Positions 21,642 to 51,903 of a stretch of 64,000 nucleotides of DNA are shown here, piece after piece. The notes beneath the pieces were generated by a model. That model was given only the letters and a program-made list of their open reading frames with translations, ran no database searches and was not told the origin of the DNA. Made by a program: the position numbers and the translations under genes. The number at the start of each line of letters is the position of its first letter. Within the stretch, counting starts at the first letter, position 1. The stretch comes from Candidatus Dojkabacteria bacterium HGW-Dojkabacteria-1 (lineage in GTDB: Bacteria; Patescibacteriota; Dojkabacteria; SC72). The stretch is from the NCBI GenBank assembly GCA_002840365.1, contig PHAO01000001.1, positions 239,242 through 303,241 on the forward strand. The letters are read 5' to 3'.

Positions 21642-24600
21642 TTATGTTCTTGCTATCTTAAGATTTCTGTTAATCAATTTTCTTCCCTTAGTTGATATTT
21701 CTGTTTTACCTTCTACAATCTTTATACCACTATCTGTTGTTTCTATAATATATTCTCCTTTCTCTGAGATATCAAATGAGTATCTCCCTTCCGAGTCTGT
21801 AACTCTTTTTGCTACTACCTTATCAAAATCTTTGTCCTTAAGTATGAGTATGATATTTACAGCGGGTGTACCATTTTCATAAAGAACTTTTCCTGTTTTT
21901 CTTCTCATACCAATAATGCTTTTTACAAGAACATATGTGGTTGGAATGTAAAGTAGTAATATCGCTAGGTTTTGTGTAATTGGATTCTTTGAGTATACAT
22001 ATGAAGCTATTGTAATACCTCCAAGGAAGAGAATTAGGTTTATGATTGGTAGTATAGATGAAGCAAAACTTCTGAAGAGAGTAAATGCTTTCTTTTGTAT
22101 TGCTTTCTGATCTGGGTCTATGGGGATTACAACATTTATTTCATTTTCCTTAAGCAGTATCTTTTCTCCGTGGTATACATTGGAAAGTGGGTAATCTTCC
22201 TTTCCAAGTATTAGTTTAGATGGGAAGTCATAGTTTCTTCCTTTCACTTCAAGTATATATTCTCCGGTAGGGATGTCTGTTCTAAAGAGTCCATACCCAT
22301 CTGTTACTGCAGTATCAACAAGTTTTTTCTCAAGATCATATATTCTAACAATTGCTTGCTGTATTGGTGCTCTTGTAATTGAATCATATACATATCCAGC
22401 AGGGTATCTCTTTCTTCTAAACCCTATTGAGCTTAGGATGTTGATAAAGATTTGTGACATAGCATATCCTACCTGTCCAAGGTTTCCTAAGATTGATGCT
22501 AATCCTACTGAAACAGTAACTGCAGTAGCAGTAGCTGATACCGTAGTGAGTCTTTCTTTTTCTATATTTCCCAGTGGTGAGCTATCAAGTAAATTGAATG
22601 TTGTAGTTACTACTCCCTCTACTGCATTAGAGATGTTGTCCCTTATTCTTCCTGTTGTTGGTATTACTGCTGGTTTCTCATACAGTTCTCCCTGTGCACC
22701 TGTTCCTCTTAGTCCATCTGCTATCCAATATGTTACTCCTGATATACTTGCTTGAGATACTGTTACATCATTTCCTTCGACTTTTAGCTTTTGAGGGAAG
22801 TTTCCTGTATACAGGACTGCTTTGTTACAATCAACTTTTATTTCTTCTAAGCTTCTTGCTTCTGGACATATTCTAAATGCGTTGTCTGAATCCTTTTTAA
22901 CTACATACATAGTATACTTATCTGTTAATCCATGTGTAGTATTAAGCTTCACAACAGTCTTACCTTGTTGTGGAGAAGTTTGAATAATTGCATTACTCCA
23001 GTCTCTGTTGTTCTCAAATGATATTGGTAAGTCAGCTACAACAAAATCTTCAGTTAAGATTCTTACTGTTTGAACACCTGTTTGTGCTCCTTCAACATTA
23101 CTTACATCAATATTTCTGTTGTCTACAAGTATAGTACTTATGTTTTCAGGCTTGTTAAGAATAATGGAGAATGTTTTACCTGTATTACTTTCTACAAATG
23201 CAGTTTCTACATTTGCATTGTTAATAGCCTTAACTCTAAATGCATATTGGGCTCCAGGTTCAAGAGATCTAATTGTTAAACCGGTATTTCCTCCCCATGA
23301 TGAATGCGTTCCCCAAACGACATTGTCTACAAGTTGCATGGTTGTATAGTCAAGATATTTTCCAGTGTTACTTTCCTGTATTGCAAATCTTGTAGTAGTG
23401 GGGTTTCCATTTCTGTCGAATCTTATCCTACCTGTACTTCCTCCTACGGTTTCAAAGATTAGGTCTCTTGGAAGGTTGGCCCATGTGGTAGCAGAAATTG
23501 TTTCAGAGAATCCTGAGAACAAATTATCTGAGTTAACGCTTCTTACTCTAAAGGTATATGTTGTATTTGGTGGAAGATTTGCTAATGTGAAGTTACTGTT
23601 TACTCTTGTATCATCATGTATTACTGTTGCAGTTGTAAATCTGTTTTCGTTATCAATATTTCCATTTGTTACTGCTTCAACCAATTGATATCTTGTATTT
23701 GCAGGATTAAGATTCTTGTCTACAGTTAATTCTATTGAACTTCCACTAATTACTCTTGCTCTTACACTTGGTACTCTTGAGAAGGTATGTGCACTTATTG
23801 ATTGGGAACAATCTGTTTCAAGATTTTGAGAGTTTCTTGCTCTTACACAGAATGTATATCTTGTATTGGCTTCTAGGTTTTGAATATTTACTCCACTGTT
23901 ACTACCGAAATCTTGTAAGGATCTCCATACAGGTTGTGTATCGAATACTCTTGTTGATGGATTCACATTCTGATTACGATTTACTTCCATTAATCTGTAT
24001 GTAGTAGAGGTGTTGTTACTGTTAGCATTAATCACTACAGACATTGTAGTTGTATCAATTGCTGTTACAGAGGTAATAGCTGGTTGGTAAGAAAGAGTAA
24101 TGATACTTACTTCATTACCATATTCTGTCTCTATGGAGTCATCATTAAGGGCTTTTACTCTGAAGGTATATTCTGTATTTGGTAATAGTCCATATACGGT
24201 TATTCCATTATTTGAGCCCAACTGTATATATGTTGCATAGTAGGGTGAGTCCTGAAGTAATTGAGAGTTAGTATTAAGATATTTCCCAGAGATTTTTTCT
24301 TGTAGAAGATATCTAGTAGTAGAAGGATTATTATTTGTATTTACAGTTAAGTCAACACTGTCAGCAGTATATTTTCCTGCTGTAATATTTTGTAATGATG
24401 GTACATTTGCAAACGTTATTGCAGAAACCACATTACTAAATGTACTCTCTGCAATACTGTTGTATATTTTCATTTTCCTTGAGTAAGAGGTATTAGGTTG
24501 CAGGTTGTTTTCTGTACAGCTAAGTATTTCTGTCCCAAGACAGGTTTTAATTAATACTCCATTTTCGTTATACAACTTAATACCTAATATACTGTCTGTA

Positions 24601-27600
24601 TATTCAGATATTCTCCATGTTATTTGACTACTTGAATCAACAACTGGAGCTATTGCTGTGATTGGTGAGAGTAGGGTAGTAGCAGAGGATGTTCCAGAGA
24701 AGTCCGTTTCAACATTTTCTCCATTTCTTGCTTTAACCTTGAAAGTGTATGTTGTTCCTGAATTTAACCCTATTACACTAAATGGTGTTAAATCTGCATT
24801 GTTCTCTCCCCAGAATGGAGTTGCTTGTAATTCTCCTGTTGTTAAATTTAGATATTTGCCTGTAAATGTTTCTTGTATTAGAAGCTCAGTATATTCTGGA
24901 TTTGCTCCATTCAGTACTCTTAGAGATATTGTTGAATTACTTGTAGCATATACATCTGTAAGACTTGGTGTTGTTGCGAGTGTATATGTAGAAATTTGGG
25001 TTGAATAAAGGGTTTCTTGTCCATCGAAGTTTCTTGCTTTTACTCTGAATGTGTACTGTGTATTTGGTTGTAATCCTATTGCTACATCTGATGTACTTTT
25101 AATCCACTCCCTTATTCCCGAATCACATCCTGTTTCTATACATTCAAAGAAGAGTCCAGAATCTCCTGTTGAGAGATTGTTTACTCCAGTTGCATTAAGA
25201 GATACAGAGGTAGTAGAGAGTGGGCCTGCAGAGAGAGTCGGTACACTTGCTTGAGTATATATGGTTATTGTATCTGAATATTCTGTTTCAACATTATCTC
25301 CATTTCTAGCTTTTACCTTAAATGTATATGGTGTGTTGTTTGAGAGTCCTGTTACGGTAGGATTATTGTCTAGTGTCCATACATTAATATTTGTATCGCA
25401 ACTACCCTCGCAATCAAAGTACAGTTCTCCACCATTTACTGGTTGTGTTGCTGTGAGAGATATTGAAGTATCTGTCTTAACTCCAGAATATTGTATTGTT
25501 GGAACAGATACTAATGTATATGCACTTGCGCTGTTTGAGGGAGAGCTTTCTGCTTCATTGTTAAATACGATTGCGTATCTTGTATATTGTGTATTTTCAG
25601 AGAGATTCTCTTCATCACAATATGTTAGATTTTGACCTACACAAGTTACTTTAAGAATGTCATTTTCATCATACAGCATTATTCCTTCCTCTCCACTTGC
25701 ATTATCAACGAATTCCCAACGCATTGATGTGGTCGTAAGTGGTGTTCCTTTAAACTCTGTTACAGTGTTTGGTACATCAAGCATTTTAAAAGTAGCTGTT
25801 GAGGACCAAGGGCTTTCTGTACCAGGTGTATCTATGAATCTTATCCTCCAAAAGTATGTTACTCCGTTTAGTGAAAGAGCTACTCCTTCATATTGAATTG
25901 GTATTGATCTTAAGCCATTCTCAATCCGGTCACTTCCTAAAAGCGCTATATATCCACTATCCCACATAGTTGTACCTGTAAAGGAAGAATTTGTATTTAC
26001 TTGGACTTGATAATGAGTTCCAAGATCTGAAGGATCAGAATCAGTAAAGACTGCACTAAACTGAGGCTGTAATGTTGTTACTTGGGTTGGATTTGTTTGA
26101 TTGTTTGTTTCAAGTGAAGATGGTGCATTAGGTGTAGAATTCATCTTGAAGGTATTTGTTGACGACCAACCACTAACAGATCCATTTACATCCCATACTC
26201 TCATTCTCCAGTAATATGTAGTACCATCAAGTGTCAAAGTATTTCCTTGGTATGTTATATTTGGAGTTCTTGTATTGTTTGCAGTTGTGGCCATAGAGGT
26301 CTCACCACTATCCCACATAGTTGTACCTGTAAAGGAAGAATTTGTATTTACTTGTATCTGATACTTGTTACCACTGTCACCATCAGGGTCTGTAAACAAA
26401 GCGCTGAAATTAGGTTGTGTGTTTGTAATAGAGGTTGGATTTACTAATCCTTCCGTTTGTAGTTGTGTTGGGGCGCTTGCAGGAGTATTCATCCTGAAAG
26501 ATGCTGCAGAGGACCATGCCCCTTCTGCACCTTTGTTATCCCAGTATTTTATTCTCCAGTAATATGTAACTCCATTCAAAGTGAGATTAGATTGTCCATA
26601 TGTAATATTTGGTCCTCTTGTTCCTCTTGTTACTGCAGAGATATTTATTTTTCCACTATCCCACATCGTAGTACCATTAAACGCTGATGTTGTATTTACT
26701 TGTAATTGATATGACACCCCTGTATCTCCAGTATCTGGATCATTGAAAATTGCACTGAAAATAGGGTTCATTGTTGTTACTCTCGTAGGATTTGTAGCAT
26801 CATTTGTTGTAAGGCTTGTAGGTGCTGTTGGAGGTGCGTTGTAAGTCTCCTCCGCGCTTTGGGAGACATTTACAGATGCTTTTCTTTGAGCAAAAATGGT
26901 TGTTATGTATGGTGGGAGTGCTTGTACTGCGGATGTTGTCGCTGTACAGCTATGAGTATGTGTATCATGCACGAAGGCTGAACCTGAAACCCTATATATT
27001 CCCTGAGAACTTGCACTCTGTCCTCCCGTTGTAACACTTATACTGTGGGTGTGTGTTGCTCCTGCGTATGAAGAACCTGCTGTTACAGCTCCAAGTGGAA
27101 ATTTTCCATCAAGAGCGGAAAATCTTGTCCAGCCGTATGGTGGAAGAGCTGTTGTCATTTCAATAATGCCGTTACTGGCATATGTTAAGGTAGAAGCCTG
27201 TCCATATGTTACTGAATAATATGGAATGTTATTATTTCCTGCTGTAGTAGTGGTACTGTTCGTCGTATGGAAGTGGTTTGCCGCAGCACTTGTACTACTG
27301 TGGGCGTCCTTACTATCCCTAGAATTGTTTGTTCCAGTATTGTATCCACCCGTGGCACTATGTGTATGTGTTGCAGATCCCCCACTTGCTACAAACCCAT
27401 TTCCACCCTTTGGATATCTTCCTGTGAGAGTTGAATAGTAAGTGAAATTAGCAGCTAGAGTTGTTGAGTTTGTATTAAACATTGCAATGGTATTTGCTGG
27501 ATGTGAGAGAGAAGTGTTTGAACAGTAGTATAGTTGGGTGAATGGGGGGTCAATCGTTGTATCTGTTACATTTACGGTTGCTCCTGTATGAGTATGATTA

Positions 27601-28253
27601 GCTAGCTGTGCAGTAGTGTTGGGAGAATCATCGTCAGCACCATTATGGAAAGTTCCAATTGCTGTTCCAGTTGTACAACTTGCAGTTCCATGATTATGGG
27701 TACCATTGGAACTTGTGCCATAGGAGGAGGAACCATATGGAAATTTCCCATCATATACACTTTCTCTAGTCCATCCACTTGGGCATGATGCAGAAGAAAG
27801 GACAAGGAATTTCCCACTCCAGGATGCTTGTCCACTTGTTGCGGAAGGGTTTGAATAGTAGAGATAAATTGTCTTACCTGCTGCAGGAAGACTTGGAATT
27901 CTGACCCAAACTTGTGTAGTTGTTGTATTACATCCTCCCTCTATCCAGTATGCAAGTAATGTCGTGTCATTACTATCAACAAATCGTAAGTCATTACAAT
28001 TAGATTGTAATTTTCCACTTGATATTAATGTTGATGTATTTACCACTACTAAAACATCTTCGTTTGTAAGGTCGGAACCTGTACCACTAACTGTTAATGT
28101 TCTTCTATTTGCCCAACTACTGTTATACCAGCCCCTTACCTCTTGTACATTCGTACTCATTACAAATATAGCCGTGATTAAACCAGTAAGACTAAGAAGT
28201 GCAATTACAAATATCAATATTTTCCTAAGTTTCTTTTTCTTGGCAGTTTTCAC
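21642..28253 (-). CDS. giant (2203 aa) cell-surface protein: N-terminal DUF2341/LamG-like domain, His/Thr-rich HTH-repeat region, about ten tandem Fn3 domains, C-terminal carboxypeptidase-regulatory-like domain and TM anchors
   Basis: N-terminal TM/signal; LRFVDSNDTTLLAYWIEGG ... VWVRIPSLPAAGKTIYLYYSN (DUF2341-like); repeated ATHTHS/HDTHTHS motifs; repeated TYYWRI(K/R) ... WSS and YTF(K/R)VKARN ... ETEYS Fn3 units with about 100-aa period; C-terminal GFRRKRYPAGYVYDSITRAPIQQAIVRI module. Confidence 0.85.
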   Translation of the reverse strand: MKTAKKKKLRKILIFVIALLSLTGLITAIFVMSTNVQEVRGWYNSSWANRRTLTVSGTGSDLTNEDVLVVVNTSTLISSGKLQSNCNDLRFVDSNDTTLLAYWIEGGCNTTTTQVWVRIPSLPAAGKTIYLYYSNPSATSGQASWSGKFLVLSSASCPSGWTRESVYDGKFPYGSSSYGTSSNGTHNHGTASCTTGTAIGTFHNGADDDSPNTTAQLANHTHTGATVNVTDTTIDPPFTQLYYCSNTSLSHPANTIAMFNTNSTTLAANFTYYSTLTGRYPKGGNGFVASGGSATHTHSATGGYNTGTNNSRDSKDAHSSTSAAANHFHTTNSTTTTAGNNNIPYYSVTYGQASTLTYASNGIIEMTTALPPYGWTRFSALDGKFPLGAVTAGSSYAGATHTHSISVTTGGQSASSQGIYRVSGSAFVHDTHTHSCTATTSAVQALPPYITTIFAQRKASVNVSQSAEETYNAPPTAPTSLTTNDATNPTRVTTMNPIFSAIFNDPDTGDTGVSYQLQVNTTSAFNGTTMWDSGKINISAVTRGTRGPNITYGQSNLTLNGVTYYWRIKYWDNKGAEGAWSSAASFRMNTPASAPTQLQTEGLVNPTSITNTQPNFSALFTDPDGDSGNKYQIQVNTNSSFTGTTMWDSGETSMATTANNTRTPNITYQGNTLTLDGTTYYWRMRVWDVNGSVSGWSSTNTFKMNSTPNAPSSLETNNQTNPTQVTTLQPQFSAVFTDSDPSDLGTHYQVQVNTNSSFTGTTMWDSGYIALLGSDRIENGLRSIPIQYEGVALSLNGVTYFWRIRFIDTPGTESPWSSTATFKMLDVPNTVTEFKGTPLTTTSMRWEFVDNASGEEGIMLYDENDILKVTCVGQNLTYCDEENLSENTQYTRYAIVFNNEAESSPSNSASAYTLVSVPTIQYSGVKTDTSISLTATQPVNGGELYFDCEGSCDTNINVWTLDNNPTVTGLSNNTPYTFKVKARNGDNVETEYSDTITIYTQASVPTLSAGPLSTTSVSLNATGVNNLSTGDSGLFFECIETGCDSGIREWIKSTSDVAIGLQPNTQYTFRVKARNFDGQETLYSTQISTYTLATTPSLTDVYATSNSTISLRVLNGANPEYTELLIQETFTGKYLNLTTGELQATPFWGENNADLTPFSVIGLNSGTTYTFKVKARNGENVETDFSGTSSATTLLSPITAIAPVVDSSSQITWRISEYTDSILGIKLYNENGVLIKTCLGTEILSCTENNLQPNTSYSRKMKIYNSIAESTFSNVVSAITFANVPSLQNITAGKYTADSVDLTVNTNNNPSTTRYLLQEKISGKYLNTNSQLLQDSPYYATYIQLGSNNGITVYGLLPNTEYTFRVKALNDDSIETEYGNEVSIITLSYQPAITSVTAIDTTTMSVVINANSNNTSTTYRLMEVNRNQNVNPSTRVFDTQPVWRSLQDFGSNSGVNIQNLEANTRYTFCVRARNSQNLETDCSQSISAHTFSRVPSVRARVISGSSIELTVDKNLNPANTRYQLVEAVTNGNIDNENRFTTATVIHDDTRVNSNFTLANLPPNTTYTFRVRSVNSDNLFSGFSETISATTWANLPRDLIFETVGGSTGRIRFDRNGNPTTTRFAIQESNTGKYLDYTTMQLVDNVVWGTHSSWGGNTGLTIRSLEPGAQYAFRVKAINNANVETAFVESNTGKTFSIILNKPENISTILVDNRNIDVSNVEGAQTGVQTVRILTEDFVVADLPISFENNRDWSNAIIQTSPQQGKTVVKLNTTHGLTDKYTMYVVKKDSDNAFRICPEARSLEEIKVDCNKAVLYTGNFPQKLKVEGNDVTVSQASISGVTYWIADGLRGTGAQGELYEKPAVIPTTGRIRDNISNAVEGVVTTTFNLLDSSPLGNIEKERLTTVSATATAVTVSVGLASILGNLGQVGYAMSQIFINILSSIGFRRKRYPAGYVYDSITRAPIQQAIVRIYDLEKKLVDTAVTDGYGLFRTDIPTGEYILEVKGRNYDFPSKLILGKEDYPLSNVYHGEKILLKENEINVVIPIDPDQKAIQKKAFTLFRSFASSILPIINLILFLGGITIASYVYSKNPITQNLAILLLYIPTTYVLVKSIIGMRRKTGKVLYENGTPAVNIILILKDKDFDKVVAKRVTDSEGRYSFDISEKGEYIIETTDSGIKIVEGKTEISTKGRKLINRNLKIART

Positions 28254-39347: not shown

Positions 39348-41921
39348 GTGCATGCCCAGTATTCTGGATTAGGAAGTGGAACTATAGAATTACCATACGT
39401 AATTACAACATGTTCCCAATTACAGGAGATAGGGGATGATCCCACAGCTCACTATGTCTTAGGTAATGACATATATTGTGAAGAGAGTGAGTTATGGAAT
39501 GATGGTAATGGTTTTATACCTATTGGTGGAGGGCAGGATTTCTGGGGAACTTTAGATGGAAATAGTTTCACCATATATGATTTGTATATTAACAGACCCG
39601 AAGAGAATAATATTGGATTATTTCATACGATTGAGGGTGGAGAAGTGAAGAATTTAACACTTGAGAGAGCATATGTTAGAGGCAACGGCAGAGTTGGGGC
39701 TTTAGCAGGACAATCATCAGATGGAGATTATTTTAATATTTCAGTTATCGATTCAATTGTTATATCAGAAGATATCTATTTTGGAAGTAATGTCGGAGGA
39801 ATTGTAGGATTTAGTGAAGATAGTATTACTATTGAAAATTGTAGTTTTAATGGGACAGTAACAGGATACAATTATGTAGGAGGTCTTCTAGGAAATGGCT
39901 ATGGAGGAGGATCAGAAATATATATTATTGATTCGTATAATGAGGGAGTTATTTCTGGTAAAAGTGGTGTAGGTGGATTAGTAGGAGTTTCAAGTTATAT
40001 TCACGAGATATCTAATTCCTACAACACTGGTTCTGTTGTCGGTTTCTACAGAGTAGGTGGATTGGTAGGTTACTCACAGTATGATATTTCAATCACGGAT
40101 TCATACAATGAGGGTAGTATTTCTGGTTACTATCGTGTAGGAGGATTAGTAGGTGGTGTTGAGGAGAAGGTGACAATATTAAGATCGTACAATGAAGGCC
40201 CGATTTCTTCCCTTTTAGAAAATTATGATCCTGAAGAGTATGATTTACCTTCGTGGATAGATCAATATGTCTGTGTAGGTGGATTAGTAGGTGCAGCTTG
40301 GAAGAGTGATATTTCCAAGTCATATAATCTTGGTAATATGCAAGCATTGGGTGGTTCTAGGTCAGTTGGTGGTATTTTAGGTTGCGGAGGTTTAGTAGAT
40401 ATACAAGAGACTTACAATAAAGGTGATATAGAAACGGAATTAACAATTTCAAGGATGGTTTCAATAGATGGAGTTGGTGGTCTGGTAGGTATGGCAATTA
40501 ATATGAAGCTTATGAACACATATAATGCGGGGAATTTAAGTGTCAGCTATTGGAATGATTGTACAGAATATTTTACAGATGGCTATTTATATTTTTCATG
40601 TGGCTATTTCCCTTTCAGTGGCGGTTTAGTTGGTACCTCTATGGTTTCCTCTGTTAGAAATTCATATAACAGAGGTGATATTACTATTGCTGAGAGTCAG
40701 GAAGAATTAGCCGAAGGGGGAGTAGGTGGGTTATTTGGGCTTCTTCTAATGGATGAGTGGATGATAAATGATATAGTTAATAATTTTGAGAAGGATTTTG
40801 TAGAGAGAGTTACAACATATATAGCCGAATTAATTAATAATTTCGCAGTAGGATTAATAACAAACCTTTACACAGGGGATAATGTCTTTGTAGGAGGATT
40901 AGTGGGTATGTTTTTTGCAGGTAATTGTACAGATAATAACTGTGTAGATGAGTATATTAATTTTCAAAATAATTGGTGGTTTAATGGTATAACCAAAGCA
41001 ATAGGTACAGTGGTTGGAGATATCTTCAGTATTCCTCAAATGTATTCAGAAGAGCAAGAGGAAGGTAGGTTTGAAAGAGCAAGTACAATGGAAATATTTA
41101 AGACCTATTCACACAAGGTATACAATACTGATCCTGAATGGGATTTTAATACAATATGGAATTCGGTATATGATGGTAAAGGTTATCCAGTATTAGGAAT
41201 ACAAAGCTTGGTGATGCCTTCTGCACCTGTCGCTAGTGTTGTTTCTGGAACATATTCTAGTGGTTTTAATGTATCTCTTTCATCTTCAGCCAGTACAATT
41301 AGATATACAATAAATGGAATAAATCCATCATGTAGTACAGGAATAATATATACAGGTTTAATACCAATATCTTCATCCTCTGTGATTAAAGCTATTGGTT
41401 GTTCAGATGATGTTTCTTCTTCTCTTTCTGAGTTTACATACATCATATTGCCAAGTGGTCCAACACCAGATACAACACCGTCTTTAACAACTTTAATAAA
41501 GAGAAAGATATATACTCCTCCAACTGTGTTGGAGAATTTAGAATCAAGTAGTGAAGTACAAGAAGAGAAAGAGGAAACGAAGGTAGAAGAGAGTAAAGAA
41601 GTAGTATTTAGAATAAAGATTGTAGATGAGAAAGGTAATGCCTTGGTAGGTGCAAAGGTTATCTTTGAGGGTAAGGAGTATATTACTGATATGAATGGAG
41701 AAATAAGGGTTAATGGAATAGAGAGTGGTGAGTATGTATTAAAGATTACTCATGATGGTAAGGAGTATGAACAGGGGGTTGTTTTAGGGAATTCTAACCT
41801 TGTAACTGAGGTAATATTAGAAGATACAGAAAAGAAAGATTTCCCGTGGTGGGTAGTAATAGCTGTGGGTAGTGTATTACTAGTTACAGGAGTATATGCA
41901 TTTAGGAAGAAACAGATTTAG
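39348..41921 (+). CDS. surface protein with about ten tandem GLUG-like repeats (SYN-G-I-G ... VGGLVG), a CHB_HEX_C-like domain, a carboxypeptidase-regulatory-like domain and a C-terminal TM anchor
   Basis: Repeated [SY]YNxGxISGxxxVGGLVG units of roughly 25-30 aa; STIRYTINGINPSCSTGIIYTGLIPISSSSVIKAIG resembles the chitobiase/hexosaminidase C-terminal domain; C-terminal WWVVIAVGSVLLVTGVYAFRKK anchor. Confidence 0.6.
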   Translation: MHAQYSGLGSGTIELPYVITTCSQLQEIGDDPTAHYVLGNDIYCEESELWNDGNGFIPIGGGQDFWGTLDGNSFTIYDLYINRPEENNIGLFHTIEGGEVKNLTLERAYVRGNGRVGALAGQSSDGDYFNISVIDSIVISEDIYFGSNVGGIVGFSEDSITIENCSFNGTVTGYNYVGGLLGNGYGGGSEIYIIDSYNEGVISGKSGVGGLVGVSSYIHEISNSYNTGSVVGFYRVGGLVGYSQYDISITDSYNEGSISGYYRVGGLVGGVEEKVTILRSYNEGPISSLLENYDPEEYDLPSWIDQYVCVGGLVGAAWKSDISKSYNLGNMQALGGSRSVGGILGCGGLVDIQETYNKGDIETELTISRMVSIDGVGGLVGMAINMKLMNTYNAGNLSVSYWNDCTEYFTDGYLYFSCGYFPFSGGLVGTSMVSSVRNSYNRGDITIAESQEELAEGGVGGLFGLLLMDEWMINDIVNNFEKDFVERVTTYIAELINNFAVGLITNLYTGDNVFVGGLVGMFFAGNCTDNNCVDEYINFQNNWWFNGITKAIGTVVGDIFSIPQMYSEEQEEGRFERASTMEIFKTYSHKVYNTDPEWDFNTIWNSVYDGKGYPVLGIQSLVMPSAPVASVVSGTYSSGFNVSLSSSASTIRYTINGINPSCSTGIIYTGLIPISSSSVIKAIGCSDDVSSSLSEFTYIILPSGPTPDTTPSLTTLIKRKIYTPPTVLENLESSSEVQEEKEETKVEESKEVVFRIKIVDEKGNALVGAKVIFEGKEYITDMNGEIRVNGIESGEYVLKITHDGKEYEQGVVLGNSNLVTEVILEDTEKKDFPWWVVIAVGSVLLVTGVYAFRKKQI

Positions 41922-42930: not shown

Positions 42931-43446
42931 TTATACTTTTTCATTCCCAATTATCTGATATATATCATTCCGAATTTTCCCAATATTGTTTACATCTGTA
43001 CTTTGTATCCTAAGTAGAGGCATATTGGCTTCTTGAAAGATTCTTTCTACTAAATTATCTCTATCTCTCCTATCATTTCTTGAGTGGGAGATATCATCTA
43101 ATTCTATTGCTAAAAGGGGTGAAAGATATACTTTGTCACAGATTACATAGTCTATAGATTTTCTTTGTATATGGCTTAGAGCCCCTTTCCAGTCTTGTCC
43201 TATTACTTTGTTATCTAATATTGAATCTAAATGTATCTGTGGAAATATGTAATATCGGTTATCTAACAGTTGGTTTAAGGTCTTAAAGAGATCGGATTCC
43301 GCTTTTGTTAATAGGTACTTCTTTCTAGTATATTGATATATTTTTTTGGTTTTATACCTATTTTTCTTTTTTATTAATGATGAAACTACAGAGAGTAATG
43401 CAAAGATAGGGATGAGGATTAGGATGTATATTATGAAGGTATCCAT
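42931..43446 (-). CDS. membrane-anchored DUF2726 (NERD-like) domain protein
   Basis: N-terminal TM; KSIDYVICDK ... AIELDDISH ... RDRDNLVERIF resembles the DUF2726 pattern. Confidence 0.5.
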   Translation of the reverse strand: MDTFIIYILILIPIFALLSVVSSLIKKKNRYKTKKIYQYTRKKYLLTKAESDLFKTLNQLLDNRYYIFPQIHLDSILDNKVIGQDWKGALSHIQRKSIDYVICDKVYLSPLLAIELDDISHSRNDRRDRDNLVERIFQEANMPLLRIQSTDVNNIGKIRNDIYQIIGNEKV

Positions 43447-43472: not shown

Positions 43473-44054
43473 TTATTCAAAACTTTTAAAAATTTCTTTG
43501 TAAAAGGAAAATTTTGAAGAAACATTATTATTTAAAACCTCTAGAGTGTGCCCAAGCATCTGATAATTAACAGAGAGTATCGCATCCTCACTTAATAAAG
43601 GATAATCCTTCTTTAAGTTTGTCCAATCAAGAGATTCTGCATTTACATGGCTAAAACTATGAGTGATTTTTACTACCTTATTGTAGTATTCTTTTGAAAA
43701 TCCAACCTCTAACATTCTCTCCCCAAGGTTACTTTTTGTCCATCTCTTCCCGAATCCAAAATCATCTTTGGAGATATCTACGAGATATTCCTTTATTCTC
43801 GTTTCAAAATTTTTATTTAAAATCCATTTTAAATTTACGGTATTTTCTATTAAAGATCTTAGTAAGATGGCTGCTTCCTGAGTAAAATTCTTCTCACATA
43901 ATAAAAGAATTGCCCCAGTAATATGAAATGAATTATAAGAGAGGCTGTGGATTAAAATATTTTTAGGAGTTTTTTCATAATTTCTTCCGATTTCGTCGAA
44001 GACAGAGTCCGTTTTTTTAATAGTATCAACAATTACACTTCTATATTGTCTCAT
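43473..44054 (-). CDS. hypothetical protein immediately downstream of the Type IIG RM gene (overlapping stop/start)
   Basis: 193-aa ORF overlapping the RM gene end by 14 nt; no motifs. Confidence 0.45.
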   Translation of the reverse strand: MRQYRSVIVDTIKKTDSVFDEIGRNYEKTPKNILIHSLSYNSFHITGAILLLCEKNFTQEAAILLRSLIENTVNLKWILNKNFETRIKEYLVDISKDDFGFGKRWTKSNLGERMLEVGFSKEYYNKVVKITHSFSHVNAESLDWTNLKKDYPLLSEDAILSVNYQMLGHTLEVLNNNVSSKFSFYKEIFKSFE

Positions 44055-47000
44055 TTTTTATATTTTTATCAATTTCTTTCATAATCCTATCTGTTTTTTC
44101 TAGAATTACTATTATTTTTTGATAATGCTCTATGTCTATGTTAGTTAATTCTATTCCTCTTCTATCCTTTAACCATTTTTGTGCAGGCTGATAACCACCT
44201 ATATAGAAATTCCATGCAATTTCAGACACATTTCCAAAGTATTGGGTATCATTAATATAGACATTGCTGTTTTTGTATCTTATTTTTTCTACAACATCAG
44301 ATCCACTAATAGGATATGTAGTTATATATTTATTAATTTTTGATGATTCCATTAAATGTAATTCTCTTAGTTTTGTTCCTATCTTTACTAATTTCTTAAA
44401 AGATTCTTTGTCTTTAGGGTATGGTACTCTAGGAAAATCTATCTTTAAGAATTCTTTGTATTTCTCCCTATATTTAGGACTATGTAATACTGCATATATA
44501 TAATCAAAGATATCTTCTGGTGTAGTTTTACCAACTATTTCCTCTATTTTTTTCACTATTTCGGTATTCAAGTTTGGTGTTTTAGTACCATCGTCGGAAT
44601 AGAGGTAGAGTGGGAAGACATAGCTATTATCTAATGGGGAGCAAATAGCCTTATCAGTTATATCCTTTGTCACAAAGTAACAATGAAATGGGCTTCGGTC
44701 TCTTTTTGTGCTATTTAGAACGAAATTAGGCTTTTCGAGAATATGTTTCATAACTGCATGTCGAGGATTGAAAACAATGTTCTTATGATAATAAATAAAT
44801 CTGTTATCAAAAATCCTGTAAGAGTATGTCTTAATCAAATCTTCCCTATATGTTTTTCCTCCTTTTCTTGTGTCAGATAATTTCCAAAGAGCGTTGTCTT
44901 GGAGTGAATATTTTGATTTAATTTCTTCATCTGTTAGGTTAGGATCATAGAAGTCTTTAATCTTTTTCTCTAAGTTATTTTTGTTTGTATTTACAGCATA
45001 ATTGTCCTTTGCGGTAGTAATACCCATACTGTGAACTTTAAAAAATTCTTGCAATGAAATTCCTCTGTTATATTCATTTATATTTTCATAATTTTTTTCC
45101 TCAAAGAAGTAGTAAGGTTCTTGATACTTTATTTGTAGAAAAGGAGTAGATCCAATTTTGAGTGAATTTAACTCTCTTAATTTCTTTTCTCTAGTTCCCC
45201 AGATATCATATCTAAATATTTTTCCTAATTCATTAGATTTTTTCTTGTTTGTTTTTATACCAATAAATATTGCTACTCCAGGTTGAATATCAAAAACATT
45301 TTCATCTTTACTTCCATCTGGACTAATATCTTTTGTCTTTGTATTTCCATGCAAATCTATTATGTAGATTTTGTCAAAGGTTTTAAGTAAACTCCATCTC
45401 ATACCCCTAAAGGTGGGATTTTCTAAGTAACCATGGTTTGTTATGAAGGCAACAATTCCAGAATTATTCTTTTCAATGAAATTCTCTGCTAAGCCAAAAA
45501 ATTTTACATAATCATCATTTAGCCAATGTTTTTTTTCTTTTAATTTCTCATCTCCTCCTGGCTCAACTTTGTATTTATTAATTATACTCTTCGCATAAGG
45601 AGTTTCGTTTGAGGAAACTCCGCTATAAGGAGGATTTCCTATTACCACCATAACGGAAGTGTTTCTCTTAATCTTTTCTGCTTCCTTAGATTCTTCGGTA
45701 ATACTTTCTGCAAAACCAAAAGAAAATAGACCTTCTTGTTTAATCCCTTGTTCTAAGGCATTTGTTAAATAAATACCTAATCTTTTATTAAAATGTATAA
45801 AGCCAGTCTTTTTAAATGCAATACTTAGCTTAAGGTGAGCTATGGTATATGGAGCCATCATTAATTCAAAAGCATGAATACGAGGTAAAAGATCATGATG
45901 AACATATGAAGGCCACCGGCCTTTTTGACCAGAATCTAAAATATTTTTATAAATGAGGTTTATAACTGCACTAATAAAAGTCCCTGTTCCAGTGGCAGGA
46001 TCCAATACTTGAACAGTATGTTTTCCATCTGCAGATTTTGAAGTATCTGCTAAACCATTGTGAAGATTAAAATCTTTTTTGAGAATGGTATCTACTGAAG
46101 TCACGATGAAATTCACAACGGGGAGGGGTGTATAGTATGCCCCCATTCTTTTTCTTAAAGCAGGATCATACTCTTGAAGGAAGTCTTCGTAAAAATGTAT
46201 CACAGGATCTTTACCATCTTTTTTTTCAAAGTATTCCTCAAGTAGATTTTTTACATCAGCATGAGAGAAAATTTGGCAAAGTTCATCTACAATATATTCC
46301 AATCTTTTATCGAAATTAGGTCCTGCTATATGATCGAAAAAATGCATTAGTAAGGGATTGGATTGGGGTACTAAATCTCTTGCTTCCTGCCTTGTAAAAC
46401 GATCTTGAGATTCATCGTTATATCTTGCTGCGAATAAGCCGTAGACCAATGTCTGGGCATACATATCCGCAAAAGATTCTACAGTTAGATCGCTTACTAA
46501 AAGTTTCTTAATCATTTCATAGACTCTCGCAATTTCTGTTCCTTCTTTTAAGAATTCTTTAACATTATCTCTTATTCTTTGTGCTTTCCCCGCCATTATT
46601 TTTGAGAGGTGAGCTCCCGATTTAATTGGTTCTTTGTATGATTTTGAGAAATCAACGAGCGTCTTTTCTAAAAGGACATAGTTATCGGGGATAGAAGATA
46701 TTGTTTTTGTTTTTTTATCGACATTTCCAATTTTAATAGGTTCCTGATATAAAAGACCATTTCTGTAAAAGCGAAATTCTAGATAATCAGTTAATACAAG
46801 ATTTGCATATCCATAGTACCTAGCCATTTGCTCAGATTTTTCTATCTTGTCTAAAGATACTCCTAAATCCTTTGTTTCCATGTATAAGATAGGGATTTCC
46901 CCATTAAAAATAACAAAGTCTGGTTTATTTTTATCCTCGGTTTTAGCCTCTTGCCTTATTTTTCTTACTTCAATTCGATTAAAAATTTCCTGTAGTAGAT

Positions 47001-47094
47001 TCTGTATTGGTGTTCTATATGAATACTCTGTTCCTTTTTCACTTTTGTATATTTCAGATATGGAAGAAAGATATTTTTCGAAGGTTTGTTGCAT
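44041..47094 (-). CDS. Type IIG/IIL-like restriction-modification enzyme: N-terminal PD-(D/E)xK nuclease fused to a gamma-class N6-adenine DNA methyltransferase and a C-terminal target-recognition region
   Basis: KPDFVIF-x11-ETKD (PD ... ExK); motif I VLDPATGTGTF; motif IV VIGNPPYSG; 1017 aa; AT-rich relative to flanks. Confidence 0.8.
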   Translation of the reverse strand: MQQTFEKYLSSISEIYKSEKGTEYSYRTPIQNLLQEIFNRIEVRKIRQEAKTEDKNKPDFVIFNGEIPILYMETKDLGVSLDKIEKSEQMARYYGYANLVLTDYLEFRFYRNGLLYQEPIKIGNVDKKTKTISSIPDNYVLLEKTLVDFSKSYKEPIKSGAHLSKIMAGKAQRIRDNVKEFLKEGTEIARVYEMIKKLLVSDLTVESFADMYAQTLVYGLFAARYNDESQDRFTRQEARDLVPQSNPLLMHFFDHIAGPNFDKRLEYIVDELCQIFSHADVKNLLEEYFEKKDGKDPVIHFYEDFLQEYDPALRKRMGAYYTPLPVVNFIVTSVDTILKKDFNLHNGLADTSKSADGKHTVQVLDPATGTGTFISAVINLIYKNILDSGQKGRWPSYVHHDLLPRIHAFELMMAPYTIAHLKLSIAFKKTGFIHFNKRLGIYLTNALEQGIKQEGLFSFGFAESITEESKEAEKIKRNTSVMVVIGNPPYSGVSSNETPYAKSIINKYKVEPGGDEKLKEKKHWLNDDYVKFFGLAENFIEKNNSGIVAFITNHGYLENPTFRGMRWSLLKTFDKIYIIDLHGNTKTKDISPDGSKDENVFDIQPGVAIFIGIKTNKKKSNELGKIFRYDIWGTREKKLRELNSLKIGSTPFLQIKYQEPYYFFEEKNYENINEYNRGISLQEFFKVHSMGITTAKDNYAVNTNKNNLEKKIKDFYDPNLTDEEIKSKYSLQDNALWKLSDTRKGGKTYREDLIKTYSYRIFDNRFIYYHKNIVFNPRHAVMKHILEKPNFVLNSTKRDRSPFHCYFVTKDITDKAICSPLDNSYVFPLYLYSDDGTKTPNLNTEIVKKIEEIVGKTTPEDIFDYIYAVLHSPKYREKYKEFLKIDFPRVPYPKDKESFKKLVKIGTKLRELHLMESSKINKYITTYPISGSDVVEKIRYKNSNVYINDTQYFGNVSEIAWNFYIGGYQPAQKWLKDRRGIELTNIDIEHYQKIIVILEKTDRIMKEIDKNIKNETI

Positions 47095-47172
47095 TAACTT
47101 TTGTTAGAATTGTTAAGTTAGCTTATAGAATTTTACATTTTCTTAGTTTTTATAACAAGGGAAGAAAAGTAG

Positions 47173-48171
47173 TTATTCTTCTTTCTTTGGATATTTTTTT
47201 AGCATTTTTGATAACAACAGAAGGGTTATTTCTATTGCAATATTTCTAGATAAACGGAAATATTCCTTATTTGAAACAAAAGAATGCCCTCCCTCTTTAT
47301 GAAGAACTCCGACAAAGGAGGTTATTAGGTCATCGTCTCTATCCGATAATTCTAATTTTATTTTAAGATATCGCCTATAACGTGCAATATCTCGCAAATT
47401 TTTTCCTTCAGGGTCTTTATATTTCGGAATATTATCTCCTTCAACTGAAGAGATTCTTTTTGCTATATCTTGAACCAAATCACTGAAAAAAGATCGGAAA
47501 TCATTAATTAAACCTGCTGATATGCTACGACTTTTTGTGTTAAGATGTTCGTCTATCTCAGTTAAAAATTCGTTATATTTCTCATCTAAGTCGATATATT
47601 TTATTATTCTTTTTACCTCTTTTACATCTTTGTTAATTTCAATATTTACTGCTCTAAGTTCACCTTTTAATCCTATGATTGAGAGATCAATTAACTTTTG
47701 TAAGACTTCTTCCTTAAAATTGTTCAAATCTTGAAAAAATTCGTGAACGAGTATCTTCTTTAGAGATAATCTTAAATCAAACAATTCATCAGTTGAGAGA
47801 GAAATGAGATTCTCTTCGAGTATTAGGTCAATGAAAGAGAAAATATTGGAAGATTCATTACTTAGATTGTTATAAAGACTTGATTGAATATGTTCTAAAA
47901 CCTTGTCTTTGTGTCCAAGATTAAATAACGTCCATGATCTAATGGGCAAAGTGTTTATATCATATCTTGAAAGTAGTAGCTTAACAAAAGAGCTTCTTAG
48001 TTCTACGTTGGTTTCCTCGATAGAGTGATATAGATCTTGTAAAATTTCGGAATTGGGATAAGAAAAATTGCTATCAGAATCAAGAAAGAAGGTGAATATT
48101 CTACTGTTGATATCGGAAATTTCCTTTGTTAAAACAATTTGAACTCTTTTTTCTAACTTTTCTTCATTCAT
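47173..48171 (-). CDS. hypothetical protein heading the defence-island operon; start refined to MNEEKLEK because the longer ORF runs into tRNA-Asp
   Basis: 332-aa ORF on the same strand 78 nt upstream of the RM gene. Confidence 0.45.
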   Translation of the reverse strand: MNEEKLEKRVQIVLTKEISDINSRIFTFFLDSDSNFSYPNSEILQDLYHSIEETNVELRSSFVKLLLSRYDINTLPIRSWTLFNLGHKDKVLEHIQSSLYNNLSNESSNIFSFIDLILEENLISLSTDELFDLRLSLKKILVHEFFQDLNNFKEEVLQKLIDLSIIGLKGELRAVNIEINKDVKEVKRIIKYIDLDEKYNEFLTEIDEHLNTKSRSISAGLINDFRSFFSDLVQDIAKRISSVEGDNIPKYKDPEGKNLRDIARYRRYLKIKLELSDRDDDLITSFVGVLHKEGGHSFVSNKEYFRLSRNIAIEITLLLLSKMLKKYPKKEE

Positions 48172-48183
48172 TATTCTTGAAAA

Positions 48184-48260
48184 TGGCGGGGTGAACGGGA
48201 CTCGAACCCGCAACCTTTGCAGTGACAGTGCAATGCTCTAACCAGTTGAGCTACCACCCC
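48184..48260 (-). tRNA. tRNA-Asp (anticodon GTC)
   Basis: Reverse complement reads GGGGTGGTAGCTCAACTGGTTAGAGC ... TTGCA-CTGTCAC-TGCAA ... GGGTTCGAGTCCCG ... CCGCCA. Confidence 0.85.
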
Positions 48261-51823: not shown

Positions 51824-51896
51824 GCGCTGGTGGGGAAGTTGGTATCCCGTTGGATTTTAAATCCAAAGCTCGAAGGTTCAAGTCCTTCCCAGCGCG
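51824..51896 (+). tRNA. canonical 73-nt tRNA cloverleaf with anticodon TTA (reads UAA/UAG); suppressor-type tRNA with Gln-like features (discriminator G73, UUUUAAA loop)
   Basis: Acceptor GCGCTGG/CCAGCGC, D-arm GGGA-AGTTGGTA-TCCC, anticodon stem TTGGA/TCCAA with loop TTTTAAA, variable AGCTC, T-arm GAAGG-TTCAAGT-CCTTC; all arm lengths canonical. Confidence 0.55.
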
Positions 51897-51903
51897 CCTT
51901 AAG

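What the first reader, a model, noticed from the sequence alone, without database searches (positions are those of the whole stretch)
44041..47094. Fused PD-ExK nuclease / N6-adenine methyltransferase: Type IIG/IIL-like single-polypeptide RM enzyme
One 1017-aa protein combines an N-terminal PD ... ETK nuclease motif with MTase motif I (DPATGTGTF) and motif IV (NPPY), followed by a roughly 450-aa C-terminal region that would carry target recognition. It is AT-rich relative to the flanks, consistent with mobile defence DNA. Single-chain Type IIG enzymes (MmeI-like) are of biotechnological interest, and this one is diverged enough that its specificity is probably new.
Basis: partly seen in the sequence, partly recalled or inferred. 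Interest (0 to 1): 0.55.

Follow-up and report, generated by a model that had tools for sequence, protein, structure and literature searches.

The report
Single-chain restriction-modification enzyme, DrdV/BBQ67-like
This gene encodes an ordinary member of a very large, already recognised family of one-protein restriction-modification enzymes that both methylate the cell's own DNA and cut foreign DNA; only its DNA recognition sequence is unknown.

The parts
44041..47094 (-). Complete gene for a 1017-aa single-chain Type IIG/IIL restriction-modification enzyme (stop codon TAG at 44041..44043)
   Evidence: ORF list and translation. 100% identical to the deposited 'DNA methyltransferase [Candidatus Dojkabacteria bacterium HGW-Dojkabacteria-1]'. 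PADLOC REase_MTase_IIG E 1.3e-274.
46630..47094 (-). N-terminal PD-(D/E)xK endonuclease domain (residues 1-155). Candidate catalytic residues are E23, D59, E73 and K75, plus Q89-x-x-x-Y93.
46870..46923 (-). PD...ExK motif, PDFVIFNGEIPILYMETK (residues 58-75)
   Evidence: Translation check. Invariant P58, D59, E73, K75. Conserved in the alignment to the Borrelia lp56 enzyme.
46210..46629 (-). All-helical connector between the nuclease and methyltransferase domains (residues ~156-295)
   Evidence: AF2 secondary structure shows helices 160-291. The whole-chain Foldseek alignment to DrdV, which has a helical connector in this position, spans the whole DrdV chain (1114 alignment columns). Boundaries are approximate.
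45190..46209 (-). Gamma-class N6-adenine DNA methyltransferase domain (residues ~296-635). Motif X is GAYYTP (318-323), motif I is DPATGTGTF (365-373), motif IV is NPPY (487-490), and F601 is also part of the pocket.
   Evidence: Pfam N6_Mtase and Eco57I pass their cut-offs. The HMMER alignment to DrdV, LlaBIII and LlaGI places N487/Y490, Y320 and F601 opposite DrdV N448/Y451, F304 and F562, the residues that hold the flipped adenine. These residues are invariant or nearly invariant in the family.
44044..45189 (-). C-terminal target recognition domain of the Type ISP/DrdV kind (residues ~636-1017)
   Evidence: Pfam Type_ISP_C covers 683-1007 at E 2e-83. It aligns to the TRDs of DrdV, LlaBIII and LlaGI.
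44590..45177 (-). Hypervariable TRD core (residues 640-835), the likely determinant of the recognition sequence
   Evidence: Mean identity to 39 homologues is 27-39% here against 64-84% in the rest of the enzyme apart from its N-terminal ~80 and last ~17 residues. Identity by domain is 24-36% for 38 of 39 homologues. Best among 270 relatives is 60% (P0002), then 53% (P0056), median 30%.
47095..47172 (-). 78-nt upstream intergenic region with a promoter-like TTGTTA-17-TAAAAT (47158..47130)
   Evidence: Consensus scan only. The number of such sites in the region is not above the shuffled expectation. Sequence shown. Weak evidence.

Best explanation
The gene encodes a stand-alone, ATP-independent, single-polypeptide Type IIG restriction-modification enzyme of the DrdV / Borrelia BBQ67-BBE02 kind, and it probably behaves as a Type IIL enzyme. 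The C-terminal TRD and the gamma-class methyltransferase domain together bind a short asymmetric DNA sequence. The enzyme flips one adenine into the NPPY pocket and uses S-adenosyl-methionine to make N6-methyladenine on one strand, which marks the host chromosome as self. When several unmethylated sites occur together, as on incoming phage or plasmid DNA, site-bound molecules oligomerise through their connector and nuclease domains. The N-terminal PD-(D/E)xK domains (E23, D59, E73, K75) then cut both strands at a fixed short distance to one side of the site. Shown here: the domain architecture, intact and invariant catalytic motifs in both enzymatic domains, the closest structural and sequence relatives, the absence of a helicase, and the absence of any conserved partner gene. 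Inferred from characterised relatives: one-strand methylation, dependence on multiple sites, fixed-distance cleavage, and anti-phage function. Unknown: the recognition sequence and the cleavage offset.
Against: There is no biochemical or methylome evidence for this protein. The N-terminal ~280 residues do not align to DrdV at the sequence level, even with a profile, so nuclease homology to DrdV rests on a predicted structure. The residue correspondence E23/D59/E73/K75 to DrdV E25/D64/E79/K81 is inferred from spacing and fold, not from a residue-level superposition. I could find no clear equivalent of DrdV K94. An intact family member can be silent: Borrelia BBH09 is intact but produced no detectable methylation in culture. 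That BB_RS07690 is bbq67 is inferred from its being the only match on lp56, not from a locus-tag cross-reference.
Confidence: 0.85

Rival explanations
1. It is a Type ISP restriction-modification enzyme, the name NCBI's pipeline gives to homologues. Such an enzyme is ATP-driven, translocates along DNA, and cuts at random distances after two molecules collide head-on.
For: The C-terminal half is the Pfam Type_ISP_C domain. The MTase and TRD align to LlaBIII and LlaGI at E 1e-46/1e-41. Homologues on plasmids and in MAGs are annotated 'type ISP restriction/modification enzyme'.
Against: The protein is 1017 aa against 1406-1578 aa for LlaGI and LlaBIII. The alignments to those enzymes begin only at their residue ~634-832, after their helicase. 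There is no helicase or ATPase Pfam hit and no Walker A or DEAD motif in the protein or its neighbours. Residues 156-295 are a helical connector as in DrdV. DrdV ranks above the ISP enzymes in both sequence and fold searches.
Confidence: 0.03
2. It is in effect an orphan or epigenetic methyltransferase. The nuclease domain is kept but is silent or not used for defence, and the protein serves gene regulation or is not expressed.
For: The database name is only 'DNA methyltransferase'. Borrelia BBE02 and BBQ67 methylation changes the transcriptome, and the intact paralogue BBH09 shows no activity in culture. The promoter evidence is weak.
Against: E23, D59, E73, K75, Q89 and Y93 are invariant across 40 homologues, and the nuclease domain is 41-63% identical across them. 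That degree of conservation argues for selection on nuclease function. The gene sits beside other defence-like genes, DUF5677 and DUF2726.
Confidence: 0.08
3. It is a BREX PglX/BrxX-type or MADS MAD2-type methyltransferase. Such proteins have no nuclease activity of their own and work within a multi-gene defence system.
For: There are weak hits to PglX (PADLOC E 1.4e-3), BREX_2_MTaseX (15 bits) and MADS2 (24 bits). BrxX structures appear in the Foldseek list at about E 1e-12.
Against: All those scores are far below the cut-offs of 400 and 720 bits and 260 or more orders of magnitude weaker than the Type IIG model. No BREX or MADS partner genes lie within +/-10 kb; the gene list shows only housekeeping genes, DUF5677 and DUF2726. 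An intact PD-(D/E)xK domain is present.
Confidence: 0.01
4. It is an MmeI-family Type IIL enzyme in the strict sense, sharing the MmeI scaffold and cutting about 20/18 nt from the site.
For: The domain order is the same: nuclease, helical region, gamma MTase, TRD. There is a weak MmeI_Mtase hit (E 2e-4). MmeI 5hr4 appears in the Foldseek list at E 5e-12.
Against: MmeI_Mtase scores 21.1 bits, below its 27-bit gathering score. No other MmeI-named Pfam family is among the matches at E<=0.01 for the whole protein, or at E<=10 for residues 1-296. The TRD is the Type_ISP_C kind. DrdV is a better match than MmeI by about 29 orders of magnitude.
Confidence: 0.03

Closest known systems
DrdV (Deinococcus wulumuqiensis; PDB 7LO5/7LVV), Type IIL single-chain RM enzyme; recognises CATGNAC and cuts 10/8 nt downstream
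   Different: Identity is only about 21% over the structure alignment. The N-terminal ~250-280 residues cannot be aligned by HMMER. The TRD core is unrelated in detail, so CATGNAC cannot be transferred. I could not check conservation of the charged residues that form DrdV's dimer and tetramer interfaces.
Borrelia burgdorferi BBQ67 (lp56) and BBE02 (lp25), bifunctional single-chain RM enzymes
   Same: The alignment runs end to end (residues 17-1014, 37% identity, E 2e-180) and includes the PD...ExK...Q..Y nuclease motifs, motif I, NPPY and the C-terminal TRD frame. In Borrelia these enzymes are stand-alone genes that block transformation and methylate one strand of a 5-6 nt asymmetric motif: CGRKA for BBQ67 and GNAAYG for BBE02.
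   Different: The TRD core differs, so the motif is not transferable. The Borrelia enzymes are plasmid-borne, whereas this gene is chromosomal in a candidate-phyla-radiation bacterium. The identity of BB_RS07690 with bbq67 is inferred.
[quoted passage not shown]
   Same: The MTase and TRD halves are homologous (E 1e-41 to 1e-46, aligned over query residues 286-980). The DrdV authors also note that DrdV and the ISP enzymes share this module.
   Different: There is no RecA-like ATPase or translocase domain. The nuclease is fused through a helical connector instead. The mechanism should therefore be assembly of site-bound molecules rather than translocation and collision.
BpuSI / Eco57I-type Type IIG enzymes (PDB 3S1S)
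   Different: BpuSI is not in the whole-chain sequence hit list. Its TRD is of a different kind.
MmeI family (Type IIL prototype)
   Same: The logic and domain order are the same: a single chain that modifies one strand and needs more than one site to cut.
   Different: It fails the Pfam MmeI models and has a different TRD family. The fold match is much weaker (E ~5e-12).

Membership tests
Type IIG restriction-modification enzymes (REase and MTase in one polypeptide) | Endonuclease and methyltransferase domains lie in one chain | tested here: met
   One uninterrupted 1017-aa ORF. A PD-(D/E)xK fold occupies 1-155 and a gamma N6A MTase occupies ~296-635. PADLOC REase_MTase_IIG scores E 1.3e-274.
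Type IIG restriction-modification enzymes (REase and MTase in one polypeptide) | Catalytic residues are intact in both domains | tested here: met
   E23, D59, E73, K75 and the DPATGTGTF and NPPY motifs are present and invariant in 40 homologues.
Type IIG restriction-modification enzymes (REase and MTase in one polypeptide) | No ATP-dependent motor (this separates Type II from Types I, III and ISP) | tested here: met
   No helicase or ATPase Pfam hit. No Walker A or DEAD motif in the protein or its neighbours. Length and alignments leave no room for a motor domain.
Type IIG restriction-modification enzymes (REase and MTase in one polypeptide) | SAM-dependent or SAM-stimulated cleavage at a defined position relative to the site | not testable with these tools
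   Needs purified protein.
Type IIL (DrdV/MmeI-like behaviour) | Methylates only one strand of an asymmetric site, and host protection rests on that hemimethylation | not testable with these tools
   Inferred from there being one MTase domain and one TRD, and from DrdV and BBQ67/BBE02. Needs methylome data.
Type IIL (DrdV/MmeI-like behaviour) | Cleavage requires two or more site-bound molecules | not testable with these tools
   Inferred from DrdV. I did not check conservation of the interface residues.
DrdV-like structural family | Architecture is nuclease, helical connector, MTase, Type_ISP_C TRD, with DrdV as nearest structure | tested here: met
Type ISP (LlaGI/LlaBIII) | RecA-like SF2 ATPase/translocase domain between the nuclease and the MTase | tested here: not met
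   Absent.
MmeI family | Matches to the Pfam MmeI-family domain models above their gathering scores | tested here: not met
   Only MmeI_Mtase appears, at 21.1 bits against a 27-bit cut-off. No other MmeI-named family is among the matches.
BREX PglX/BrxX | Match to PglX models and a BREX gene neighbourhood (PglZ, BrxC, BrxL and others) | tested here: not met
   PADLOC PglX E 1.4e-3. NCBIfam BREX_2_MTaseX 15 bits against a 400-bit cut-off. No BREX genes within +/-10 kb.

The most novel reading that the evidence does not exclude
In this genome the RM gene would not be acting alone. The DUF5677 gene starts 14 nt before the RM stop codon, which suggests translational coupling. Together with the DUF2726 nuclease-like gene after it, and the unannotated 332-aa gene before it, it would form a new composite defence operon next to tRNA-Asp in a ~0.7-Mb candidate-phyla-radiation genome. 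In this reading the RM enzyme also carries a TRD core that specifies a recognition sequence not yet catalogued.
Probability: 0.08. Interest if true: 0.4.

Novelty: new member of a known kind. Interest (0 to 1): 0.15.

Why it matters
It matters little beyond cataloguing. Type IIG enzymes are reported as the most prevalent RM subtype in groundwater prokaryotes (PMC12259885). This protein is already deposited, and PADLOC recognises it outright. The practical value is narrow. The TRD core (residues 640-835) is at most 60% identical to any of 270 relatives retrieved here. If expressed, the enzyme could therefore add one more recognition sequence to the DrdV/BBQ67-type scaffold, which is useful for specificity engineering and for reading methylomes of uncultivated Dojkabacteria. 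The result also shows that the pipeline label 'type ISP restriction/modification enzyme' is a misnomer for this helicase-less family.

Tried and rejected
1. A database search with the TRD core alone (residues 620-850) returned only two weak hits and did not even return the protein itself. The word index made it uninformative.

3. I tested whether the cluster is a tRNA-linked integrated island. tRNA-Asp lies at 48184..48260 directly upstream. However, the tRNA 3' end has no second copy in the window even with 3 mismatches, there are no convincing direct repeats at the cluster borders, and no integrase is present. The idea is not supported.

4. I looked for an 'empty site' in a related genome, using the 241-aa flanking protein as anchor. 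The only close locus, L011, is a 3.9-kb contig whose similarity to the window is confined to that one gene. This was uninformative.

5. I searched for a second N6-MTase in the window by [DNS]PP[YFWH] motif. The only other hit, DPPF in the 2203-aa ORF 21642..28253, lies in a giant Ig/fn3 surface protein, so it is a chance match.

6. I checked for phase-variable repeats in the gene. There are only two T8 runs and no simple-sequence repeats, so phase variation is not indicated.

7. The phage collection gave only two partial hits, covering MTase plus TRD at 28% identity in Listeria phage records. There is no evidence that the gene is phage-borne.
Full report
OBSERVATION. The minus-strand ORF 44041..47094 is real and intact: 1017 codons, ATG start, TAG stop. 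In an alignment of 40 homologues with 57-69% identity, P58, D59, E73, K75, the DPxxGTGTF residues and NPPY are all invariant. So are E23 and Q89-x-x-x-Y93 in the nuclease domain, and F601 in the methyltransferase; Y320 is conserved in at least 90%. The motifs are therefore conserved functional sites, not chance strings. The compositional claim is weak. The gene is 31.1% GC against 34.0% for the window. 9% of equally long windows are as low or lower, and the left flank is itself 32.0%.

IDENTITY AND SOURCE. The protein is 100% identical to a deposited protein named 'DNA methyltransferase' from Candidatus Dojkabacteria bacterium HGW-Dojkabacteria-1. The same gene, in the same neighbourhood, occurs in assemblies from two different samples. 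It is therefore a chromosomal gene of a candidate-phyla-radiation bacterium.

WHAT IT IS. Family models give a clear answer. PADLOC's Type IIG REase-MTase models score E 1.3e-274 and 1.1e-109 over the full length, whereas PglX scores 1.4e-3. NCBIfam's BREX-2 PglX and MADS MAD2 models score 15 and 24 bits against cut-offs of 400 and 720. Pfam finds Type_ISP_C (683-1007, E 2e-83), N6_Mtase and Eco57I above threshold. MmeI_Mtase is below threshold (21.1 against 27 bits), and there is a near-threshold HSDR_N nuclease match at 49-112.

Against PDB sequences the best hit is 7LO5/7LVV, the Type IIL enzyme DrdV (E 5e-52, or 1e-76 with the family profile). The Type ISP enzymes LlaBIII and LlaGI follow. 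All three align only from about residue 265-300 onward, that is, over MTase plus TRD. In those alignments N487 and Y490 pair with DrdV N448 and Y451, Y320 pairs with F304, and F601 pairs with F562. The DrdV paper identifies these four DrdV residues as holding the flipped adenine.

D59 sits at the start of the second core strand and E73-x-K75 at the end of the third, which is the canonical PD-(D/E)xK geometry. DrdV's active site is E25, D64, E79, K81 (and K94). E23, D59, E73 and K75 have almost the same spacing. This correspondence is inferred from spacing and fold, not from a residue-level superposition.

WHAT IT IS NOT. It is not a Type ISP enzyme, although NCBI's pipeline gives that name to homologues. 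There is no helicase domain, no Walker A or DEAD motif in the protein or its neighbours, and residues 156-295 are a helical connector. It is not an MmeI-family member. It is not PglX or MAD2.

A GENETICALLY CHARACTERISED RELATIVE. A translated search of plasmids found 232 records, 47 of them with full-length matches. Among them is B. burgdorferi B31 lp56. The single matching gene there, BB_RS07690 (1086 aa), aligns to residues 17-1014 at 37% identity (E 2e-180), including PD...ExK...Q..Y, motif I and NPPY. The literature places the bifunctional RM gene bbq67 on lp56. BBQ67 and its relative BBE02 restrict transformation, and they methylate one strand of CGRKA and GNAAYG respectively (also PMC4466376). 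That BB_RS07690 is bbq67 is my inference from its being the only match on that plasmid.

FAMILY SIZE AND VARIATION. An exhaustive HMMER scan of 1.84 billion cluster representatives found 12,724 at E<=1e-3 and 3,823 at E<=1e-30. Most of the 150 best listed are about 1000-1100 aa and match over nearly the full length. The scaffold is well conserved: the connector, the MTase domain and the C-terminal frame are 63-87% identical to the 39 aligned homologues, and the nuclease domain is 41-63% identical. Residues 640-835 drop to 24-36% identity in 38 of the 39. Among 270 relatives the best TRD-core identities are 60% and 53%, and the median is 30%. This is the pattern expected of a conserved catalytic chassis carrying a swappable or fast-evolving specificity module. 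The recognition sequence cannot be predicted here. It may well differ from any characterised one, but without REBASE that remains untested.

NEIGHBOURHOOD. The gene is the second of four minus-strand genes, bounded by tRNA-Asp (48184..48260) on one side and a convergent plus-strand gene on the other.
- An unannotated 332/346-aa protein lies at 47173..48171/48213.
- The RM gene follows.
- A DUF5677 gene lies at 43473..44054, and its ATG is 14 nt upstream of the RM stop codon.
- A DUF2726 gene lies at 42931..43446, with weak matches to REase_MTES_1575 and SduA.

In six loci that encode homologues the neighbours are entirely different. They are often other defence or toxin genes (PIN, AAA_15/AAA_21, Peptidase_M78/HTH, a helicase-MTES_1575 fusion), and none of the six has DUF5677 or DUF2726. 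The RM enzyme therefore needs no conserved partner, as expected for Type IIG. The local cluster looks like a small defence island. I found no att-like repeat, no integrase and only a slight GC dip.

MECHANISM (best-supported; steps marked). Shown: the architecture, the intact catalytic sites, the absence of a motor domain, and the absence of an obligate partner. Inferred from DrdV and BBQ67/BBE02: the TRD and MTase bind an asymmetric 5-7 bp site; one adenine is flipped into the NPPY/Y320/F601 pocket and methylated slowly with SAM on one strand; on DNA with several unmethylated sites, site-bound molecules pair through their connectors and then through their nuclease domains, so that two PD-(D/E)xK centres cut both strands at a fixed offset. 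Unknown: the site, the offset, and expression in the host.

VERDICT. The MmeI likeness is functional only, not membership. 'Diverged' applies only to the TRD core, and the AT-richness argument is weak. This is a new, uncharacterised member of a known and very common kind, and its interest is low.

Noticed in passing
window 51824..51898 (+): A well-formed tRNA (Rfam tRNA 68.8 bits; ARAGORN 'tRNA-Stop') has the anticodon loop UUUUAAA, that is, anticodon UUA, which would read the stop codon UAA. It lies between the TsaD and enolase genes. Yet TAA terminates 25 of the 41 ORFs of at least 200 codons in the window (TAG 14, TGA only 2). This may be a suppressor tRNA, and it is unexplained.
   Followed up: partly
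window 43473..44054 (-): A DUF5677 gene (Pfam E 1e-11; weak PADLOC AbiB hit, E 5e-4) has its ATG 14 nt upstream of the RM stop codon, which suggests translational coupling. It is not found next to RM homologues in six other loci.
   Followed up: partly
window 42931..43446 (-): A DUF2726 protein (E 4e-29) has an N-terminal hydrophobic segment and weak similarity to REase_MTES_1575, DUF559 and SduA nuclease folds. It is a possible stand-alone nuclease-type defence gene at the end of the cluster.
   Followed up: no
window 47173..48171 (-), tRNA-Asp 48184..48260 (-): A 332-aa protein (346 aa from the TTG start, which would overlap the tRNA) has no match in Pfam, NCBIfam, PADLOC or PHROGs. It lies between tRNA-Asp and the RM gene. 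The four-gene cluster abuts the tRNA 3' end, but I found no repeat of the tRNA end and no integrase.
   Followed up: partly
window 21642..28253 (-) and 39348..41921 (+): Two very large predicted surface proteins. One is 2203 aa with Ig_Rha78A_N, fn3, DUF2341 and CarboxypepD_reg domains, in a locally GC-richer stretch (39-43% GC at 26-28 kb). The other is an 857-aa repeat protein with a C-terminal membrane anchor; precomputed Pfam hits for it include Glug (faint), Peptidase_M26_N (weak), Fn3_assoc (weak) and CHB_HEX_C_1. Such proteins are typical of episymbiotic CPR bacteria.
   Followed up: no
homologues in NCBI/PLSDB records (e.g. H1-H13): NCBI's pipeline names helicase-less members of this family, about 1000-1090 aa long, 'type ISP restriction/modification enzyme'. 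For proteins without the ATPase domain that name is a misnomer, and it could mislead defence-system censuses.
   Followed up: partly
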